Under the pieces are notes generated by a model. It ran no database searches. It worked only from the letters and a program-made list of their open reading frames with translations, and was not told where the DNA came from. Below, piece by piece: positions 1,759 to 9,841 of a DNA stretch of 13,085 nt. A program made the position numbers and the translations under genes. Within the stretch, counting starts at the first letter, position 1. The number at the start of each line of letters is the position of its first letter. This DNA comes from Candidatus Methylomirabilia bacterium (GTDB taxonomy: Bacteria; Methylomirabilota; Methylomirabilia; Rokubacteriales; CSP1-6): assembly GCA_041497895.1 (NCBI GenBank), contig JBGQHJ010000134.1, positions 1 through 13,085 of the forward strand. The letters run 5' to 3'.

Positions 1759-2178
1759 CTATTCCTCCCGCGGGCGGCCCGCGGGCGCGCCCAGCACGTA
1801 GGCCGCGAACAGCTCGTCGAGGGCCCGCGCCGGATCGTCGGTGAGCCCGGCGTGGACCGGCGAGCTCTGGAGCACGTCCGAGCGCGGGGCGGTGAGCCAG
1901 TGGAAGCGCTCGGACGGCGGGGCGAGCGCGACCGGGCCCGCGGCGGGGTCGCCCGCGGCGACCGCGCAGCCCGACGCCAGGTAGCGGGCGAGCAGCTCGT
2001 GGTCGATGTCGGGCACCCGCGCGCGCAGGTCGTCCAGCGCGGCGAGGGTCCGCATCCCCAGGTAGCCCGCGGTGCGCGCGTGGAGCACCACCCCGACCGG
2101 CACGAAGGCCCCCAGGTGCACGTGGGGCACCGCGCGGAGCACCGCGAAGTCGTAGGCGATCGGGACCCCGGCGGTCAT
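1759..2178 (-). CDS. DUF3037-like protein, 139 aa (partner of the HipA-like kinase)
   Basis: True start is ATG 2178, overlapping the kinase stop (ATGA); the longer 270-aa ORF call is an N-terminal over-extension. Motifs YDFAVLRAVPHV..GVVL and ERFHWLTAPRSDVLQSSPVHAG match my recollection of DUF3037. Confidence 0.85.
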   Translation of the reverse strand: MTAGVPIAYDFAVLRAVPHVHLGAFVPVGVVLHARTAGYLGMRTLAALDDLRARVPDIDHELLARYLASGCAVAAGDPAAGPVALAPPSERFHWLTAPRSDVLQSSPVHAGLTDDPARALDELFAAYVLGAPAGRPREE

Positions 2179-3020
2179 CGGCGCGCGGAGAGGGGACGCG
2201 GCCGCTCGCGACGCGCCTGCTCTCGCGCGCGGGTCGCCTCGGCCACGAAGACGCGGGGCTCGCGCAGGCGCACCGCCAGGTATTCGAGGTAGCGGGCGCG
2301 GGCGGCCGCCGCGGAGGGAAAGTCGCGCCCGCCCACCGGATCGGTCAGGAGCTCGTCCGGCACCCGCGCGAGGATGCCGGCGAGCACCTCGGGGGAGAGT
2401 GCGCCGGCCAGGGGCGCGTCGACCGCACCCAGGTCGCCGGCCCGATCGAGCAGCACGTGGTCCCGGATGTGCGGGAAGGGGGTCCGGGCTCGCGCCTCGT
2501 CCACCGTGGCCCAGTCGTGATGCGCGTAGAGCGCTCCGCCGTGATCGATCAGCCACGGGCCGCGCCGCCACACGAGCAGGTTGGGATTACGATGGCTGCG
2601 GTCCGGGTTGGTGACGAGCGCGTCGAGCCACACGAGCCGCGTGGCGAAGTCGGTGGAGATCAGCTCCCCCGCGGCGGTGGCGTCGAAGTTGAACGCGCCG
2701 TCGAGGTAGCGCAGCCCCACGTTGACGCCCTGGCTGCCCCGCAGGATGTCCTGGATCTCCGGGTCGGGCTCGCTCCGCCCGAAGGCCGCGGAGAGGTCCA
2801 CGATCGCGAGCTCGGGCACCGGCAGGTCGAGCGCCTGCGCGAGCTGGCCCACCACCAGCTCGGCGATCAGGGCCTTCGGGCCCTGCCCCGCGCCCCGGAA
2901 CTTGACCACGAACAGTCCCCCGGTGGCGGTGTCGACGACCGCGGGCAGCGAGCCGCCCTCCCGCAGCGGCTGCACGTAGCGGGTCGCCGCGTGACGCGCG
3001 AGCGAGTCGGGTGTGGCCAT
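2175..3020 (-). CDS. HipA-like (PI3/4-kinase-fold) kinase, 281 aa
   Basis: Gly loop LREGGSLP, catalytic Lys in VVKFRGAGQG, helix-C Glu in IAELV, catalytic loop NPDRSHRNPNLL and Mg-binding LIDHG. Confidence 0.88.
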   Translation of the reverse strand: MATPDSLARHAATRYVQPLREGGSLPAVVDTATGGLFVVKFRGAGQGPKALIAELVVGQLAQALDLPVPELAIVDLSAAFGRSEPDPEIQDILRGSQGVNVGLRYLDGAFNFDATAAGELISTDFATRLVWLDALVTNPDRSHRNPNLLVWRRGPWLIDHGGALYAHHDWATVDEARARTPFPHIRDHVLLDRAGDLGAVDAPLAGALSPEVLAGILARVPDELLTDPVGGRDFPSAAAARARYLEYLAVRLREPRVFVAEATRAREQARRERPRPLSARR

Positions 3021-3072
3021 CCCCGCTCAGGACTGTACTACACGGGCCCGGGGCCGCGGTATGATGCGGGCC
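3021..3072. promoter_or_regulatory. Compact divergent promoter region (kinase / selenoprotein 1)
   Basis: On +, TATGAT at 3060-3065 lies 7 nt before ATG 3073, with no Shine-Dalgarno. On -, TACAGT at 3037-3032 lies 11 nt upstream of the kinase ATG (3020). No convincing -35 boxes. Confidence 0.55.
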
Positions 3073-4668
3073 ATGGAGATCCTCGACCCGGTCGGCTCGT
3101 CCGCCGCCGCCACGCGCACCGGGGCGCCGCGCCCGGCCTCGCTGCAGGGAGCGGTCATCGGCATCCTCGACAACTCCAAGCCCAACGCGCGCGTCCTGCT
3201 GGAAGGCGTGGCCCGCGCGCTCGCGGCCAAGCTCGGCGCCGCCGAGGTGCGCGTGTGGCGCAAGCCCGGTGCCTCCATCGGCGCGACGCGCGCCGTGCTC
3301 GACGAGATGGCGGCCCACTGCGGGGCCGTCCTGACCGCCTCCGCCGACTGAGGGTCGTGCACGTCGTGGAGTATCCACGACGCCACGGAGCTGGAAGGGC
3401 GGGGGATCGCGACCGTCGTCCTGGGCACGCACGAGTTCCGCCCGCTCGCCCTCGCCGAGGCCCGCGCCAAGGGACTGGCCTCGCTCGGGATCGTCACGGT
3501 GCCACACCCCATCGGCGGCGTGGCGGAGGACCTGGTCGCGAGCAAGGCGGCGGGCGCGGTCGACCAGGTGCTGGCCGCGCTCATCGGCACCGTGGCCGCG
3601 AGCGGAGTGGATGCCGGGGTGGCGGAAGGGCCGGCCCCGCGCCACCGCGCGCCCGACGATCTCCTCGATTTCCAGGCCTTCCTGATGGAGCGCGGCTGGG
3701 GCGACGGGCTGCCCGCCATTCCCGCCACCCCGGAGCGGGTGGCCGCGATGCTCGCGGGCACGCGGCGTGCGGCCGGCGACCCGGTCGCGGTGCTGCCCCC
3801 CCGGCTCGGCCGCGCCACCGTCGAGCGGGTGGCGGTGAACGCGGTGCTGGCGGGCGCGCTGCCCGAGCACCTGCCGGTGATCCTGGCCGTGGTCGAGGCG
3901 GTGAGCCAGCCCGCCTTCAACCTGCAGGCCATCCAGACCACCACCCATCCCTGCTCGCCGCTCGTCATCGTCAACGGCCCGCTCGCGGTCCGGCTCGGCG
4001 TCAACGGGGGCGGCAACGCGCTCGGGCAGGGCCATCGCGCCAACGCGGTCATCGGGCGCGCCCTGCGGCTCGTGCTGCAGAACGTGGGCGGGGCCCGGCC
4101 CGGTCACGAGGATCGCGCGACCCAGGGGCACCCGGGCAAGTACAGCTACTGCGTGGCCGAGAACGAGGCCGCGTCGCCCTGGGAGCCGCTCTCCGTCGAG
4201 CGGGGCTTCGGGCGCGAGGTCAGCACGGTGACGGTCTGCGGCTCGGAGGCCCCGCACAACATCAACGACCACGGCTCCTCCACTCCCGAGGGCATCCTCG
4301 CCACGGTGGCGGGCAGCGTGGCCACGGTGGGGAGCAACAACATCTACCTGGGCGGCGAGCCGCTGGTGATCCTGGGGCCCGAGCACGCGGCCACCGTGGC
4401 CGGCGGGGGCTGGACCAAGGCCCGGTTCAAGCGCGAGCTGTGGGAGCGCGCCCAGGTGCCGCTCTCGCGCTTCGATCCCTCCAACATCGAGCGCTTCGCG
4501 GTGATCCACCCCGCCGGTTTCAAGGACCGCCCGCCCGACACGCTGGCCCCGATCGCGCGCGAGTGGGCCGACATCATGATCGTGGTGGCGGGCGGGGCCG
4601 GAAAGCACTCGGTGTTCGTGCCCACCTTCGGGGCGACGCGCTCGGTCACCCAGCGCATCGAGGTGTGA
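3073..4668 (+). CDS. UGSC-type selenoprotein fused to a large GWxDGLP-motif domain; 531 aa, Sec93 encoded by TGA 3349-3351
   Basis: ORFs 3013..3351 and 3499..4668 share a frame and are separated only by TGA 3349-3351. Readthrough gives AVLTASAD-U-GSCTSWSIHDATELEGRGIATVVLGTHEF..VPHPIGG with no further stop until 4668. A hairpin follows the TGA. The start at 3073 (MEILDP) is supported by the paralog (FEILDP); ATGs at 3061 and 3064 are alternatives. Confidence 0.9.
3352..3388 (+). promoter_or_regulatory. Putative bacterial SECIS element 1
   Basis: Perfect 9-bp stem CGTCGTGGA-GTA-TCCACGACG at 3362-3382, starting 11 nt after the UGA, with the loop G at +20. Possible lower stem CGTG(3356-3359)/CACG(3384-3387). 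Confidence 0.8.
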
Positions 4669-6879: not shown

Positions 6880-8145
6880 TCAGCGTCGTGAGCGCCAGGG
6901 CCCGGTGATCAGGCGCGCGCCGCGCTGCCAGCTGATGTACGCCCACGCCCATTCGAACAGCACCAGGAAGCGGTTGCGGAAGCCGATCAGGAACGCGATG
7001 TGCACGAAGAGCCACGCGAGCCAGGCCGGCAGGCCGGAGAGGCGGAGGCGCCCGACCACCGCGACCGCGGCCGCGCGGCCGATGGTGGCCATGCTGCCGC
7101 GGTCGCGGTAGCGGAACGCGTCGGTCGGCTCTCCGGCCAGATGGTGCAGCACGTTGCGGGCCGTCGCGCGCCCCTGCTGCAAGGCGACCGGCGCCAGCCC
7201 GGGTAACGGTCGGCCGTCGGCCCCGGTGAAGGAGCACAGGTCGCCGATGGCGAAGGCCTCGGGGTGGCCGGGGATCGAGAGGTCGCGCTCGACCAGCACG
7301 CGCCCGGCCCGGTCGAGCGGCACGCCCAGCGTGCGGGTGAGCGGCGCGGCGGCGACGCCGGCCGCCCACAGCACGGTGCGCGCGCGGATCTGCTCCCCGC
7401 CCAGCCAGACCGCGTCGGGGGTTACCCGCGTGACGGTGGCGCCGGTGCGCACCTCGACCCCGATGCGCGCGAGCGCGGCGGCGGCGCGCGCGGGCAGGGG
7501 ATCGGGGAAGGCGGCCAGGACGCGGGGGCTGCCCTCGAGCAGCACGATCCGCGCCTTGGTGGGGTCGATCAGGCGGAAGTCGCGCGCGATGGTCTCGCGC
7601 GAGATCTCGGCCAGGGCCCCGGCCAGCTCCACCCCGGTCGGGCCGCCGCCGATCACCACCGAGGTGAGCAGCGCGCGCTGCTCGGCGCCGTCCTGCTCCC
7701 GCTCGGCCTCCTCGTAGGCCAGCAGCACGCGGCGCCGGATCTCGAGCGCGTCCTCCAGGGTCTTGAGGCTCGGGGCCAGCGGCTCCCAGTCGTCGTGGCC
7801 GAAGTAGGAGTGGCCGGCGCCCGCGGCGAGCACGAGCGCGTCGTAGGGCATCGCGCCCTCGTCGAGGACGAGGCGTCGGCCGGCCAGGTCCACCGACACG
7901 ACCTCGGCCAGGAACACGGTGACGTTCGGGGCGCGGCGCAGGATGGAGCGAAGCGGGGTCGCGATGTCGGACGGGTTGAGGGCCGCGGTGGCCACCTGGT
8001 AGAGCAGGGGCTGGAAGAGATGATGGTTGCGCCGGTCGAGGAGGGTGACGCGGACCGGCCGGTTCGCGAGCGCGCGGGCCGCGTAGAGCCCGCCGAATCC
8101 GCCGCCCACGATGACCACGTGCGGATGCCCGTCGCGGTCGCTCAC
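6880..8145 (-). CDS. ndh: Type II NADH:quinone oxidoreductase (FAD-dependent), about 421 aa
   Basis: Two Rossmann motifs (VVIVGGGFGG, VVIGGGPTGVELAG), HLFQPLLYQVAT, WAAGV, AIGD, APVALQQG, FRYRDRGSMATIGR and C-terminal AWLAWLFVH. Start placed at GTG 8145, just before the first Rossmann strand. Confidence 0.92.
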   Translation of the reverse strand: MSDRDGHPHVVIVGGGFGGLYAARALANRPVRVTLLDRRNHHLFQPLLYQVATAALNPSDIATPLRSILRRAPNVTVFLAEVVSVDLAGRRLVLDEGAMPYDALVLAAGAGHSYFGHDDWEPLAPSLKTLEDALEIRRRVLLAYEEAEREQDGAEQRALLTSVVIGGGPTGVELAGALAEISRETIARDFRLIDPTKARIVLLEGSPRVLAAFPDPLPARAAAALARIGVEVRTGATVTRVTPDAVWLGGEQIRARTVLWAAGVAAAPLTRTLGVPLDRAGRVLVERDLSIPGHPEAFAIGDLCSFTGADGRPLPGLAPVALQQGRATARNVLHHLAGEPTDAFRYRDRGSMATIGRAAAVAVVGRLRLSGLPAWLAWLFVHIAFLIGFRNRFLVLFEWAWAYISWQRGARLITGPWRSRR

Positions 8146-8151
8146 GGACTC

Positions 8152-8180
8152 ATCTTCCGGGGGACCTCGGACGGTGTCAA
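8152..8180 (-). promoter_or_regulatory. Possible divergent promoter for ndh
   Basis: TTGACA on the minus strand (8180-8175), a 17-nt spacer, then a weak -10 GAAGAT (8157-8152) ending 6 nt before GTG 8145. Confidence 0.4.
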
Positions 8181-8202
8181 CCGAGCGCGAGCCGCGGCCG
8201 GC

Positions 8203-8247
8203 TTGACAGGACGCGGGCTTCGCCCTAGGGTGAGCGCACACAGGAGG
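8203..8247 (+). promoter_or_regulatory. Sigma70-type promoter and RBS of the selenoprotein-2 operon
   Basis: TTGACA 8203-8208, a 17-nt spacer, TAGGGT 8226-8231, AGGAGG 8242-8247 and ATG 8256. Confidence 0.75.
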
Positions 8248-8255
8248 AGTCGCTC

Positions 8256-9302
8256 ATGACCGCGAGGATCTCGTCACAGCGCTACGCCGTCGAGGGTTTC
8301 CAGGAGGCGCTCGACCTCTGCTACAGCCGGGGATGGACCGACGGCCTGCCGGTGGTGCCGCCGACCGAGCCGGCGGTGCGGGCCATGCTCGACGCGGTCG
8401 CGCTCGAGCCCGACGCGCAGGTCGCCTTCATCACCAACCGACAGGTGGCGATCTCCGCCGAGAAGGTCGCGATCAACGCGGTGATGGCGGGCTGCCGGCC
8501 CGAGTACATGCCGGTGGTGGTGGCCGCGATCGAGGGCATCGCCGATCCCCGGTGGGGCTATCACGGGCCGGCCACGTCCACCGGGAGCGCGGCGGTCCTC
8601 ACGATCGTCAACGGGCCCGTCGCCAAGCGGCTCGACTTCAACTCGGGCGACAATCTCTTCGCGCCGGGCTGGCGGGCGAACGCCACCGTCGGGCGCGCGG
8701 TGCGGCTGGTGATGCGCAACGTGATCGGGACGATGCCCGGACGGCTCGACCGCGGGACTTTCGGCCATCCGGGCCGCTACACGTACGTGATGGCCGAGAA
8801 CGAGGCGGAGAGCCCGTGGACACCGCTGCACGTCGAGCGGGCCGGCTGCCGGCCCACCGACAGCGCGGTCACGGTCATGGCCGCGCTGGCCCCGATCCAG
8901 TTCTACAACCAGCTCTCGAGCACCGCGGCCGGCGTGCTCGGCACGCTCTGCGACACGATGCGGTATCCCGGGCAGATCGGACAGCCCAACTACTGCGTGG
9001 TGCTGGCCGGCGAGCACATGCGCACGATCGCGGCCGACGGCTGGTCCAAGGCCGACATCCGCAAGTTCATCTTCGAGAACTCCACGAACACGGTGGCGCA
9101 CTTCAAGCGGACCGCGCGGATGCCCGGCGGGGTGAAGCCGGAGGACGAGGCCACGAGCCGGCCGATCGTGCAGTCGCCGGACGACATCCTGGTGGTGGCG
9201 GCGGGGGGGCGCGCCGGCTCCTTCTCGTGCTTCATCCCGGGCTGGGCGAGCCGCACCTCGTCGGAAGCAGTGACGGTGGTCATCAAAGAGAGGAGCGCAT
9301 GA
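8256..9302 (+). CDS. Stand-alone GWxDGLP-motif protein (UGSC-selenoprotein partner), 348 aa, function unknown
   Basis: Strong RBS. Colinear paralog of the C-terminal domain of 3073..4668: GWTDGLPVVPPT/GWGDGLPAIPAT, EKVAINAVMAG/ERVAVNAVLAG, IVNGP, RANATVGRA/RANAVIGRA, GHPGRYTY/GHPGKYSY, AENE..SPW.PL.VER, GWSKA/GWTKA, DILVVAAGG/DIMIVVAGG. Confidence 0.9.
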   Translation: MTARISSQRYAVEGFQEALDLCYSRGWTDGLPVVPPTEPAVRAMLDAVALEPDAQVAFITNRQVAISAEKVAINAVMAGCRPEYMPVVVAAIEGIADPRWGYHGPATSTGSAAVLTIVNGPVAKRLDFNSGDNLFAPGWRANATVGRAVRLVMRNVIGTMPGRLDRGTFGHPGRYTYVMAENEAESPWTPLHVERAGCRPTDSAVTVMAALAPIQFYNQLSSTAAGVLGTLCDTMRYPGQIGQPNYCVVLAGEHMRTIAADGWSKADIRKFIFENSTNTVAHFKRTARMPGGVKPEDEATSRPIVQSPDDILVVAAGGRAGSFSCFIPGWASRTSSEAVTVVIKERSA

Positions 9303-9841
9303 TGGCGGGATTCGAGATCCTCGACCCCACGGTCGAGCCGCGGCGACAGCCGCTCACGTACGTGCCGCGCCCGGATTCGCTCAAGGGCAAGCGCATCGGA
9401 CTGGTGGAGAACACCAAGTTCAACTCGGACAAGCTGCTGCAGAAGATCGGGGTCATCCTCAAGACCGAGTACGGCGCCGCCGAGGCGCGGATGTGGCGCA
9501 AGCACAACTCGAGCGTGCCGGCCCACAAGGAGATCATCGACGACGCCAAGCAGACCGTGGACGTCGTCGTCGCCGGCATCGGCGACTGAGGGTCCTGCTC
9601 GTCGGGCAGTGTGCTCGACGGAATCCTGTTCGAGAAGATCGGCGTCCCCGCCGCGTCCATCGTGACCGACGTCTTCGAGGCCACCGGGCACGCCATGGCC
9701 CAGTCGTGGGGCGTCCCGGAGTACAGGTTCCTCTCGGTGCCGCATCCGATCGCGAACCTCACCGACGCCGAGCTGGACGCGCGGGCCCGCACGATCGCCC
9801 CCGAGGTCGTGCGACTGCTGCTGAAGGGCCAGGAAGGCTAG
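9299..9841 (+). CDS. Stand-alone UGSC-type selenoprotein; 180 aa, Sec97 encoded by TGA 9587-9589
   Basis: ATG 9299 (ATGA overlap, AGGAG RBS; ATG 9302 is an alternative) reads MMAGFEILDP..VVVAGIGD-U-GSCSSGSVLDGILFEKIGVPAASIVTDVF..VPHPIAN..KGQEG* and is in frame with ORF 9611..9841. It is colinear with locus 1 on both sides of the TGA. Confidence 0.9.
9590..9626 (+). promoter_or_regulatory. Putative bacterial SECIS element 2
   Basis: 9-bp stem CGTCGGGCA-GTG-TGCTCGACG at 9600-9620 (one G-U pair), starting 11 nt after the UGA with the loop G at +20, the same geometry as element 1. Confidence 0.8.

What the first reader, a model, noticed from the sequence alone, without database searches (positions are those of the whole stretch)
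3073..4668. Hidden 531-aa selenoprotein: a UxxC domain fused through a recoded TGA to a large uncharacterised domain
Seen: TGA 3349-3351 sits in GAC-TGA-GGG-TCG-TGC (D-U-G-S-C), the frame stays open to 4668, and a perfect hairpin starts 11 nt downstream. Established: bacterial Sec insertion uses UGA plus an immediately 3' SECIS hairpin read by SelB, and UxxC is a redox motif; 'UGSC'-motif proteins are, to my recollection, a predicted but functionally uncharacterised selenoprotein family. Inference: gene callers would split this into two hypothetical proteins, but it is a single selenoenzyme.
Basis: partly seen in the sequence, partly recalled or inferred. Interest (0 to 1): 0.9.

Follow-up and report, generated by a model that had tools for sequence, protein, structure and literature searches.

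The report
UGSC selenoprotein fused to its partner enzyme
This is a real selenocysteine-containing gene that gene callers cut in two: a member of the known but functionally unexplained UGSC selenoprotein family, fused to the unnamed enzyme-like domain it nearly always accompanies.

Summary
ORF 3073-4668 (+) is open apart from TGA 3349-3351, which lies in D-U-G-S-C. A 9-bp hairpin with a GUA loop follows it.

- The Pfam UGSC model (PF24696) and the NCBIfam model NF041046 match residues 2-171, straight across the TGA.
- Full-length homologues carry Cys at that column.
- The codon is TGA in 76 of 81 related domains.
- selA, selB, selC and selD are present in the genome.
- Public databases hold close relatives only as 386-426 aa "hypothetical proteins" that start after the TGA.

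It is not new as a kind. The family has been in print since 2007-2008, and Zhang and Gladyshev 2008 describe the "UGSC/Unknown_1" fusion. Earlier notes of this scan report the same pair on other DNA.

- All 7 UGSC genes of this genome carry TGA and lie beside or fused to an Unknown_1 gene. One split pair is at 8256-9841 in this window.
- Unknown_1 is elsewhere fused to thioredoxin-reductase-like and ferredoxin:thioredoxin-reductase modules.
- Unknown_1 has no solved structural relative.
- This ortholog group has Ala at the family's near-invariant Cys.

Function is inferred to be a selenol/thiol redox relay.

The parts
3073..4668 (+). Whole gene: 531-codon UGSC-Unknown_1 fusion selenoprotein plus its stop TGA at 4666-4668
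   Evidence: translation; orthologues spanning residues 1-530 with '1 TGA'. ATG 3073 is the start conserved among orthologues.
3349..3351 (+). In-frame UGA read as selenocysteine (residue 93) in the motif D-U-G-S-C
   Evidence: The same column is TGA in 76, TGC in 4 and TCG in 1 of 81 related domains. It is TGA in 30 of 30 loci L021-L050.
3355..3388 (+). SECIS-like hairpin: core 9-bp stem 3362-3370 / 3374-3382, loop GUA 3371-3373, and a predicted lower stem 3355-3359 / 3384-3388
   Evidence: -20.8 kcal/mol, z = -2.4; 95.7% of cells paired over 44 sequences, 3 of 9 pairs changed on both sides, loop G and U invariant; rare AGT codon in the loop. The lower stem is predicted for this sequence only.
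3076..3585 (+). UGSC domain (residues 2-171), modelled as five beta-alpha units with Sec93 at the N-terminus of helix 94-109
   Evidence: PF24696, 166.1 bits, E 1.1e-48. NF041046, 127.8 bits against cut-off 125. AF2 model and fold matches of Z 9-11 to flavodoxin- or Rossmann-like domains.
3586..3639 (+). Linker (residues about 172-189). It has no stop here, whereas paralogues that are split genes have their stop at this place.
   Evidence: pLDDT 78-80 in blocks 171-190; the second stop falls at residues 172-180 in split paralogues.
3640..4665 (+). Unknown_1 domain (residues about 190-531), with no Pfam or NCBIfam model. Family-conserved residues include R329, E363 and C360. The near-invariant Cys column is Ala262 here, and Cys294 is present instead.
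   Evidence: no Pfam match; 4503 and 5267 homologues; matches the Unknown_1 block of Fig. S1A; conserved columns; confident model with no strong PDB match.
3060..3065 (+). TATGAT, a possible -10 box 7 nt before the ATG with no Shine-Dalgarno sequence. A leaderless mRNA is inferred.
   Evidence: TATGAT, TATCAT or TATACT sits just upstream of the start in many orthologues. No promoter scan was run and no transcript 5' end is available, so this is inference only.
8256..9302 (+). Stand-alone Unknown_1 paralogue (348 aa). Its stop TGA 9300-9302 overlaps the ATG 9299-9301 of the next gene.
   Evidence: 40% identity to residues 185-531, E 1e-70. ATGA overlap.
9299..9841 (+). Stand-alone UGSC selenoprotein (180 aa), with Sec codon TGA at 9587-9589 in G-D-U-G-S-C and stop TAG at 9839-9841
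   Evidence: PF24696, 199.5 bits across the TGA; 32% identity to the N-domain, E 1e-28..
9600..9620 (+). Second SECIS-like hairpin, in the same register after its UGA. Its 9-bp stem carries two compensated pairs relative to the first hairpin, and its loop is GUG.
   Evidence: U-A to G-U and G-C to C-G.

Best explanation
SHOWN BY SEQUENCE AND COMPARISON. 3073-4668 is one gene for a 531-residue protein. Its N-terminal 171 residues are a UGSC-family domain in which UGA 3349-3351 stands at the column where relatives have Cys. Its C-terminal ~340 residues are the 'Unknown_1' domain. A hairpin 10 nt after the UGA, with a conserved GU in its loop, has the position and form of a bacterial SECIS. The genome has tRNA-Sec, SelA, SelB and SelD.

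INFERRED FROM ESTABLISHED KNOWLEDGE OF BACTERIAL SEC DECODING. SelB with Sec-tRNA(Sec) binds the hairpin and inserts Sec93. Without selenium, translation would stop after 92 residues.

INFERRED MECHANISM (my odds about 0.45). The U93-x-x-C96 pair sits at a helix N-terminus of a flavodoxin-like module and cycles between selenol/thiol and selenylsulfide. It passes reducing equivalents to the Unknown_1 domain, which is the catalytic part and has conserved R329, E363, D211, D347, C360 and, in most members, a Cys at column 262. The electrons come from a thioredoxin-reductase-type donor. The substrate is unknown; gene neighbourhoods give only a weak hint of small organic acids.

The confidence figure below is for the identity of the gene, not for the mechanism.
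For: Identity:
- PF24696 matches residues 2-171 (E 1.1e-48), and NF041046 scores above its cut-off; both span the TGA.
- Cys forms exist. The codon counts are TGA 76, TGC 4, TCG 1 of 81.
- 30 of 30 loci L021-L050 keep ADUGSCTSWS. Listed full-length matches in the phylum all carry a TGA.
- GC3 is continuous across the TGA.
- The hairpin is conserved and covaries.
- selC, selA, selB and selD are present, and selA is in 18 of 21 genomes of the genus.

One polypeptide:
- There is no stop in the linker.
- One-frame fusions occur in 28 hits from many phyla.
- The AF2 model has pTM 0.95 over both domains.

Functional coupling:
- 7 of 7 UGSC genes of this genome are fused to or 18-84 nt from an Unknown_1 gene, in either order, several with ATGA overlaps.
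- The same holds in Natrialba asiatica for a Cys form.
- Reverse-order fusions exist: P0125, P0141, P0147 and P0233.

Redox relay:
- Unknown_1 is fused to a Pyr_redox_2 flavoprotein in P0148 and to the FeThRed_B catalytic chain in P0216.
- Pyr_redox_2 genes are nearest neighbours in 5 of 77 loci.
Against: - No experiment shows Sec insertion or a full-length product.
- RNA-library contigs cover the gene, but none bridges the TGA by 31 nt on both sides. DNA carry-over in those libraries cannot be excluded.
- The genome is a MAG, 86.8% complete and 7.2% contaminated, and the Sec genes lie on other contigs.
- For the mechanism, model coordinates could not be read, so the distance between Sec93 and the Unknown_1 cysteines is unknown. 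The complex predictor was unavailable.
- The reductase fusions are 2 of 28 proteins scanned.
- The family's near-invariant Cys is Ala262 in all 30 loci of this ortholog group. A relay onto that Cys cannot work here as in the rest of the family, unless Cys294 or Cys360 takes the role.
- Variants of the UGSC motif that lack the second Cys (UGTS, UGSS) fit a simple UxxC redox couple poorly.
- 6 of 13 Unknown_1 genes in this genome have no UGSC neighbour on their contig.
Confidence: 0.88

Rival explanations
1. The gene is a real Sec-containing fusion, but Sec93 is not an electron shuttle. It is part of a composite active site at the domain interface. It could act as a nucleophile on the substrate, as is held for the selenoprotein B subunits of glycine and D-proline reductases, or as a ligand of a metal or Fe-S centre together with the Unknown_1 cysteines.
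For: - UGSC variants keep U or C at the first position but lose the second Cys: UGTS, UGSS and CGTS in L089, L105, L116, L124 and L147. So the first residue matters more than a UxxC couple.
- The pairing is obligate and fusions occur in either order, as expected for subunits of one enzyme.
- pTM 0.95 suggests a fixed interface.
- There are weak fold matches to Fe-S hydro-lyases: class I fumarate hydratase 7xky_A (Z 4.8, 185 residues aligned, rmsd 5.2), L-serine dehydratase (Z 3.9) and CyuA (Z 3.9).
Against: - The fold matches lie below the level the tool calls meaningful (Z under 8).
- Profile-profile comparison with 13 class I fumarate hydratase alpha domains gives probability 0.4%.
- Only two Cys columns are near-invariant in Unknown_1, and one of them is Ala here.
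Confidence: 0.3
2. TGA 3349-3351 is an ordinary stop. On this reading there are two genes: a 92-residue N-terminal product and a separate downstream protein that starts at an internal GTG (for example 3499), which is how public gene calls treat it.
For: Public gene calls of close relatives begin after the TGA. In this G+C-rich DNA long open frames arise by chance.
Against: - The UGSC domain model needs both sides of the TGA, at positions 1-171 of 172. A 92-residue product would be half a domain.
- Cys occupies this column in homologues.
- The TGA is kept in 76 of 81 domains across phyla.
- A conserved hairpin with covariation follows it.
- The Sec machinery is present.
Confidence: 0.03
3. The in-frame TGA is a sequencing or assembly error, or the gene is a pseudogene.
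For: The source is a fragmented MAG of 280 contigs with 7.2% contamination.
Against: - The same codon is at the same column in 30 of 30 loci L021-L050, which come from 30 assemblies.
- It is there in all 7 UGSC paralogues of this genome.
- GC3 of 0.95-0.97 and 84-95% protein identity among close relatives show purifying selection.
Confidence: 0.01
4. The fusion is read through as described, but the Unknown_1 part is also made on its own from an internal start in the linker. Its supply would then not depend on selenium, as in the split paralogues.
For: - 6 of the 7 pairs in this genome are split genes.
- An in-frame GTG lies at 3607-3609, preceded by GAGCGGA.
- The stretch 3073-3349 has no ribosome-stalling safeguard that I can see.
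Against: - The purine-rich stretch abuts the GTG with no spacer, which is poor for a ribosome binding site (read).
- Orthologues keep the linker open in 30 of 30 loci, which argues that the fused form is selected.
- No transcript or protein data bear on this.
Confidence: 0.1

Closest known systems
UGSC-containing (seleno)protein family (Pfam PF24696; NCBIfam NF041046; Zhang and Gladyshev 2007, 2008)
   Same: The domain match lies above both curated cut-offs, and the U-G-S-C motif is at the same column. Cys homologues exist. The family's function is stated as unknown in the passages read from PMC1976440, PMC2398784 and PMC13188914.
   Different: The literature passages call it likely thioredoxin-like in fold. 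The model here is five parallel beta-alpha units whose best matches are flavodoxin- or Rossmann-like domains (Z 9-11). This genome carries seven Sec paralogues.
UGSC/Unknown_1 fusion of the Global Ocean Sampling selenoproteome (Zhang and Gladyshev 2008, section 9 and Fig. S1A)
   Same: The architecture is the same: UGSC at the N-terminus and Unknown_1 at the C-terminus. Residues 254-310 align by eye with the printed block AVNGVMAGCRPEYMP...IVNGP. That block is the pattern the locus scan used.
   Different: The Cys printed as conserved in Unknown_1 (AGC) is Ala262 in this ortholog group, which has Cys294 instead. The paper shows only a 60-column block from reads. It does not report the adjacency in either order, the reductase fusions or a fold, as far as the passages and Fig. 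S1 that I read show.
Selenoprotein B systems: glycine/sarcosine/betaine reductase GrdB with GrdE, and D-proline reductase PrdB with PrdA
   Same: It works alike in outline. A UxxC selenoprotein module is always encoded with a larger partner, it takes electrons from the thioredoxin system, and the family has many substrate-specific paralogues.
   Different: No sequence or fold comparison with GrdB or PrdB was run here. Pfam GRDB did not match at E up to 10. There is no sign of a pyruvoyl proprotein. Membership is not claimed.
Class I (Fe-S) fumarate hydratase, L-serine dehydratase and CyuA hydro-lyases
   Same: These are the only recurring full-domain fold matches of Unknown_1: 7xky_A with Foldseek E 1.4e-3 and VIA Z 4.8 over 185 residues, and 6mso_A with Z 4.3.
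   Different: The scores are in the range of chance arrangements. hhalign probability is 0.4%. The three invariant cluster cysteines of the fumarate hydratase alignment have no demonstrated counterparts.
Enzymes fused to their own thioredoxin-type reductant (recalled examples: Trx-fused methionine sulfoxide reductases, Prx-Grx hybrids)
   Same: A small redox module is fused or adjacent to the enzyme it reduces, and alternative fusions to upstream reductases occur (P0148 Pyr_redox_2, P0216 FeThRed_B).
   Different: The module is not a thioredoxin fold in the model. The reduced enzyme has no known chemistry.

Membership tests
UGSC family (seleno)protein (PF24696 / NF041046) | Match to the family models above their curated cut-offs over the whole domain | tested here: met
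   PF24696 scores 166.1 bits against 25, residues 2-171 on profile positions 1-171 of 172. NF041046 scores 127.8 bits against 125.
UGSC family (seleno)protein (PF24696 / NF041046) | U (or C)-G-S-C motif at the conserved column | tested here: met
   D-U-G-S-C at residues 92-96. The column is aligned with DCGSC of Cys homologues.
Bacterial selenoprotein gene | In-frame UGA aligned with Cys in homologues, with conserved coding sequence on both sides | tested here: met
   (TGA 76, TGC 4, TCG 1 of 81). (GC3 0.967 before and 0.948 after).
Bacterial selenoprotein gene | Stem-loop immediately 3' of the UGA with a conserved G in the apical loop (bacterial SECIS) | tested here: met
   A 9-bp stem starts 10 nt after the UGA, with loop GUA. 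Conservation, covariation and invariant G and U are shown. The numeric rules of the bSECIS model are recalled, not checked with that program. Rfam has no matching family.
Bacterial selenoprotein gene | selA, selB, selC and selD in the same genome | tested here: met
   On C167: selC 71.3 bits, selA 565.7 bits, selB 359.9 bits. selD is on C142 (itself with a TGA) and on C2. selA is in 18 of 21 genomes of the genus.
Bacterial selenoprotein gene | Selenium actually incorporated at the UGA | not testable with these tools
   This needs 75Se labelling or mass spectrometry.
UGSC/Unknown_1 fusion (Zhang and Gladyshev 2008) | C-terminal domain homologous to the Unknown_1 block, in one frame with UGSC | tested here: met
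   By eye against Fig. S1A. The printed motif is the scan pattern that retrieved 601 relatives. There is no stop in the linker.
UGSC/Unknown_1 fusion (Zhang and Gladyshev 2008) | Conserved Cys of Unknown_1 (AGC) | tested here: not met
   It is Ala262 here and in 30 of 30 loci L021-L050. The column is Cys in at least 90% of 134 aligned sequences. This is a departure within the family, not grounds for exclusion.
Thioredoxin-fold proteins (as the UGSC domain is described in the literature) | Thioredoxin-like fold around the UxxC motif | tested here: inconclusive
   The AF2 model shows five beta-alpha units. The top 50 VIA matches are flavodoxin- or Rossmann-like, and no entry in that list is titled as a thioredoxin. 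An absence from the list does not exclude the fold.
Class I fumarate hydratase / Fe-S hydro-lyase superfamily | Shared fold and three cluster-binding cysteines | tested here: inconclusive
   VIA Z 4.8 and 4.3, Foldseek E 1.4e-3. hhalign probability 0.4%.
GrdB/PrdB selenoprotein B family (PF07355) | Sequence or fold similarity to GRDB | not tested
   The only check was a Pfam scan at E up to 10, which listed nothing but UGSC. No profile or structure comparison was run.

The most novel reading that the evidence does not exclude
UGSC plus Unknown_1 is a two-part selenoenzyme with a catalytic fold that has no solved relative. It is fed by thioredoxin-reductase- or ferredoxin:thioredoxin-reductase-type donors and carries out a reductive step on small organic substrates. 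It has diversified into many substrate-specific paralogues (13 Unknown_1 and 7 Sec-UGSC genes in this genome alone). In the ortholog group of this window the active-site Cys has moved from column 262 to 294, marking a sub-family with altered chemistry.
Probability: 0.35. Interest if true: 0.65.

Novelty: new member of a known kind. Interest (0 to 1): 0.35.

Why it matters
UGSC-containing proteins are among the most abundant selenoprotein families in aquatic metagenomes: 255 sequences in the GOS table, and they are the most used family in non-marine samples. A 2026 review still lists them among selenoproteins whose functions are largely uncharacterised.

This gene is a natural single-chain form of UGSC with its constant partner. 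It comes from a lineage in which public annotation truncates it throughout. Correct annotation restores about 135 residues to hundreds of database entries.

The pairing, the fusions in both orders and the fusions of the partner to disulfide reductases give a concrete experiment: purify the pair, supply thioredoxin reductase and NADPH, and screen substrates. The kind itself and the fusion are already described, so the gain is incremental.

Tried and rejected
1. Folding of 81 nt around the TGA was not significant (z = -0.62). Only the 47-nt window was.

2. An Rfam scan of the window found no family at gathering score.

3. Sequence searches of the C-domain and of the 134-row profile against the PDB found nothing useful. 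The only hit was a periplasmic binding protein at E 0.61.

4. Pfam at E up to 10 gave nothing on the C-domain or on its paralogue.

5. Fold searches of the full model matched only the N-domain, and only to generic alpha/beta domains.

6. Fold searches of the C-domain alone gave a best Z of 5.6 (a chorismate-mutase-like piece of 89 residues) and weak class I fumarate hydratase rows. I tested that lead with an alignment of 13 fumarate hydratase alpha domains, and hhalign gave probability 0.4%. It is rejected as evidence of homology.

7. The complex predictor, tried for a natural Cys-form split pair (Natrialba, L137), was not available. The interface is therefore untested.

8. The ESM Atlas returned only unnamed or automatically named clusters ('Thioredoxin family protein', score 0.97). 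This is not evidence of function.

9. Names of 10 representative clusters were all 'hypothetical protein' or absent.

10. RNA-library contigs (X15, X16, X17, X19) cover the gene, but no contig bridges the TGA with 31 nt on both sides, and DNA carry-over cannot be excluded.

11. A survey of nearest-neighbour genes found that TctC receptors dominate (19 of 128), all in betaproteobacterial-type MAGs. That family is known to me to be hugely expanded there, so I do not read it as linkage.

12. One search used a wrong frame. It was corrected.

13. I could not read model coordinates in the script box, so no Sec-to-Cys distances were measured.
Full report
WHAT IS THERE

The + strand from ATG 3073 to TGA 4666-4668 is open for 531 codons. 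The only interruption is TGA 3349-3351, which sits in GAC-TGA-GGG-TCG-TGC, that is D-U-G-S-C. Ten bases after the TGA a perfect 9-bp stem with a GUA loop begins (3362-3382).

IS IT MORE THAN CHANCE?

An open frame by itself means little here. The window is 73.6% G+C. Two other frames across 3073-4665 have no stop at all, and an 890-aa ORF overlaps in another frame. Three kinds of evidence are independent of that.

(a) Coding signal. GC at third codon positions in the proposed frame is 0.967 before the TGA, 0.948 after it, 0.853 in the linker and 0.969 in the C-domain.

(b) Homology.
- The Pfam UGSC model PF24696 matches residues 2-171 on profile positions 1-171 of 172, right across the TGA (E 1.1e-48).
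- NCBIfam NF041046, 'UGSC family (seleno)protein', scores 127.8 bits against a cut-off of 125.

(c) The RNA.
- The 47 nt from the UGA fold to -20.8 kcal/mol (z = -2.4; 2 of 200 shuffles as good). The 81-nt window was not significant.
- I compared 44 distinct UGA-proximal sequences, taken from orthologues, paralogues and the window's second UGSC gene. The stem is paired in 95.7% of cells, against at most 55.8% when the 3' side is slid.
- Three of 9 pairs show changes on both sides: G-C to A-U in 4 sequences, and U-A to G-U and G-C to C-G in 5. The loop's G and U never vary.
- These changes amount to about two independent events, and the stretch is also coding, so the covariation is supportive rather than decisive.
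- The invariant loop U is the third base of an AGT (or TGT) codon. In nine ORFs of the window AGT occurs 3 times against AGC 41, and two of the three AGT codons are the loops of the two hairpins. That points to selection on the RNA.

- Cys homologues. Of 18 full-length (528-570 aa) relatives aligned, 12 have Cys at the Sec column and 10 have CGSC or CGNC.
- In 78 loci from many phyla the codon at that column is TGA in 76, TGC in 4 and TCG in 1 of 81 domain hits.
- Sec machinery. tRNA-Sec (71.3 bits), selA and selB lie together on contig C167. selD is on C142 (itself with an in-frame TGA) and on C2.
- The genome is a MAG, 86.8% complete and 7.2% contaminated, so I also checked the genus: selA is found in 18 of 21 genomes.
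- Within the phylum sample, 164 of 201 genomes have a relative of the protein, and 13 of 13 other genomes of the genus do. Every listed match that spans residues about 1-530 carries a TGA.
- All 30 loci L021-L050 (the window plus 29 relatives) read ADUGSCTSWS.
- One of these loci, L048, comes from an unpublished genome (G029). Without it the counts are 29 of 29. The tallies also include the unpublished G029, G058 and G101.

GENE CALLERS DO SPLIT IT

The closest proteins in the public collections are 386-426 aa 'hypothetical proteins' of Methylomirabilota. They start after the TGA, and some carry the C-terminal third of the UGSC model.

IS THE FUSION REAL, AND IS IT NEW?

The linker (residues about 172-189) has no stop here, nor in the orthologues.

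In several paralogues a second stop lies exactly there, at residues 172-180, so those are two adjacent genes that happen to share a frame. One-frame fusions without such a stop occur in 28 hits from Burkholderiales-type MAGs, Chloroflexi, Smithella, Binatia, a Robertmurraya isolate and others. That locus set was ranked by match to the fused query, so these proportions are biased.

The fusion is in print. [quoted passage not shown] I read the passages and the whole text of Fig. S1. The printed Unknown_1 block (AVNGVMAGCRPEYMP ... IVNGP) corresponds to residues 254-310 here.

The family itself appears in the 2007 Olavius paper as 'a selenoprotein of unknown function' (passage). It also appears in reviews of 2022 and 2026 (passages). 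A full-text search for 'UGSC' with 'selenoprotein' gave 9 papers. I read passages in four of them and saw the other five only in the listing. None of the passages assigns a function.

(1) The pairing is constant in this genome.
- The genome has 7 UGSC domains, all with TGA at the Sec column, and 13 Unknown_1 domains.
- All 7 UGSC domains are fused to an Unknown_1 gene or lie 18-84 nt from one. Six Unknown_1 genes have no UGSC on their contig.
- Only the gene under study is fused. Two pairs are UGSC then Unknown_1, and four are Unknown_1 then UGSC, several with an ATGA stop/start overlap.
- One of the latter is in this window: Unknown_1 at 8256-9302 (40% identical to the C-domain, E 1e-70) followed by a 180-aa UGSC selenoprotein at 9299-9841. 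That second gene has its own TGA (9587-9589) and hairpin.
- The haloarchaeon Natrialba asiatica has a Cys-form pair with the same ATGA overlap.

(2) Fusions run both ways. Four representatives of about 460 aa are Unknown_1 followed by the first 92 positions of UGSC, that is, reverse-order fusions cut by the gene caller at the Sec codon.

(3) Unknown_1 is elsewhere fused to disulfide-reductase modules: a C-terminal Pyr_redox_2 flavoprotein in P0148 and an N-terminal ferredoxin:thioredoxin reductase catalytic chain in P0216. That is 2 of 28 proteins scanned. Pyr_redox_2 genes are nearest neighbours in 5 of 77 loci.

(4) Structure.
- The full-length model is very confident (pLDDT 96.3, pTM 0.95).
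- The UGSC domain is five beta-alpha units with Sec93 at the N-terminus of helix 94-109. Its best matches are generic flavodoxin- or Rossmann-like domains (Z 9-11), not what the literature's 'Trx-like' label would suggest.
- The C-domain modelled alone is equally confident (96.1 / 0.94), but its best match among 48,161 PDB representatives is Z 5.6. Only weak rows appear for class I fumarate hydratase, L-serine dehydratase and CyuA.
- A profile-profile test against fumarate hydratase alpha domains failed (probability 0.4%).

(5) A departure in this ortholog group. The column that is Cys in at least 90% of 134 aligned family members (AGC) is Ala262 in all 30 loci L021-L050. These loci have Cys294 (THPC) instead. 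Some paralogues have both, and others only the first.

HOW IT MOST LIKELY WORKS

Shown: the gene structure, the family membership, the conserved UGA and hairpin, the Sec genes and the genomic coupling of the two modules.

Inferred from the established bacterial mechanism: SelB with Sec-tRNA(Sec) reads the hairpin and inserts Sec93.

Inferred with about even odds: U93/C96 form a selenylsulfide couple that relays electrons from a thioredoxin-reductase-type donor into the Unknown_1 catalytic domain. This rests on Rosetta-stone logic from the reductase fusions.

The main rival (about 0.3) is that Sec93 belongs to a composite active site as a nucleophile or metal ligand. The evidence for it is that motif variants keep U or C but lose the second Cys.

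I could not measure inter-domain distances, because coordinates were not readable, and the complex predictor was unavailable. The substrate is unknown. Neighbours such as MmgE/PrpD (6), luciferase-like monooxygenases (4), Amidohydro_2 (3) and CoA-transferase III (2), out of 128 nearest ORFs, hint only weakly at organic-acid metabolism. The 19 TctC receptors are probably background of betaproteobacterial genomes.

EXPRESSION

Contigs of four RNA libraries from three studies cover the gene. They pile up on 3342-3398, because contigs of other UGSC genes share the roughly 40-nt UGA-hairpin block. None bridges the TGA adequately, and DNA carry-over cannot be excluded.

EARLIER NOTES OF THIS SCAN

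A word search returned 717 notes in at least 440 genomes on UGSC selenoproteins. The eight shown describe the same UGSC-partner pair on other DNA and suggest thioredoxin or TrxR links. I treated them as leads. The pairing was found independently before I read them. The reductase-fusion lead was tested and partly confirmed.

VERDICT

This is a genuine, mis-annotated selenoprotein gene and a new member of a known family in a known fused architecture. Its function is still unknown, and a testable redox-relay hypothesis is on the table. Interest is moderate at 0.35.

Noticed in passing
window 8256-9841 (+): A second, split copy of the same system. It consists of an Unknown_1 paralogue (8256-9302) and a 180-aa UGSC selenoprotein (9299-9841) with Sec TGA at 9587-9589 and hairpin at 9600-9620. 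The two genes are joined by an ATGA stop/start overlap.
   Followed up: yes
window 1759-3020 (-): Divergent from the selenoprotein gene lie a HipA_2-like kinase ORF (2175-3020) and a DUF3037 ORF (within 1759-2571). These two families may form a unit. A CDP-alcohol phosphatidyltransferase ORF lies at 1143-1754.
   Followed up: no
window 3060-3072: TATGAT lies 7 nt before the ATG and there is no Shine-Dalgarno sequence. TATGAT, TATCAT or TATACT is kept just upstream of the start in many orthologues. This is a possible leaderless transcript.
   Followed up: partly
window 3340-3381: In four RNA-library runs the summed contig depth rises about 3- to 40-fold on this roughly 40-nt block. Many contigs of other genes match only here, with loose ends before 3340-3346 and behind 3381. 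The UGA-hairpin block is therefore conserved at the nucleotide level across many UGSC genes in soils and sediments.
   Followed up: partly
window 6880-8241 (-): An NDH-2-type flavoprotein (Pyr_redox_2 plus NDH2_C) lies divergently next to the split Unknown_1/UGSC pair. By its domains it is a respiratory NADH dehydrogenase, not a thioredoxin reductase, so a link is doubtful.
   Followed up: no
G000:C142:378-1313 (-), locus L008: One of the two selD genes of this genome is itself a selenoprotein. It has an in-frame TGA in ACAG-U-ASK, followed by an 8-bp hairpin with loop GAUC.
   Followed up: partly
L082 (Chloroflexi MAG contig JACPQD010000044.1), 1935-7305: Three fused UGSC-Unknown_1 selenoprotein genes stand in tandem, each with one TGA.
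   Followed up: no
proteins P0148, P0216, P0171, P0266: Other architectures of the Unknown_1 domain: fused to a thioredoxin-reductase-like flavoprotein (P0148), fused to the ferredoxin:thioredoxin reductase catalytic chain (P0216), and doubled Unknown_1 proteins of 717 and 741 aa (two matched stretches).
   Followed up: partly
window 3856-3858 (Ala262) and 3952-3954 (Cys294): The family's near-invariant Cys is Ala in this whole ortholog group, which has a Cys 32 residues later. Paralogues L051-L056 have both. Whether the two positions are neighbours in space could not be measured.
   Followed up: partly
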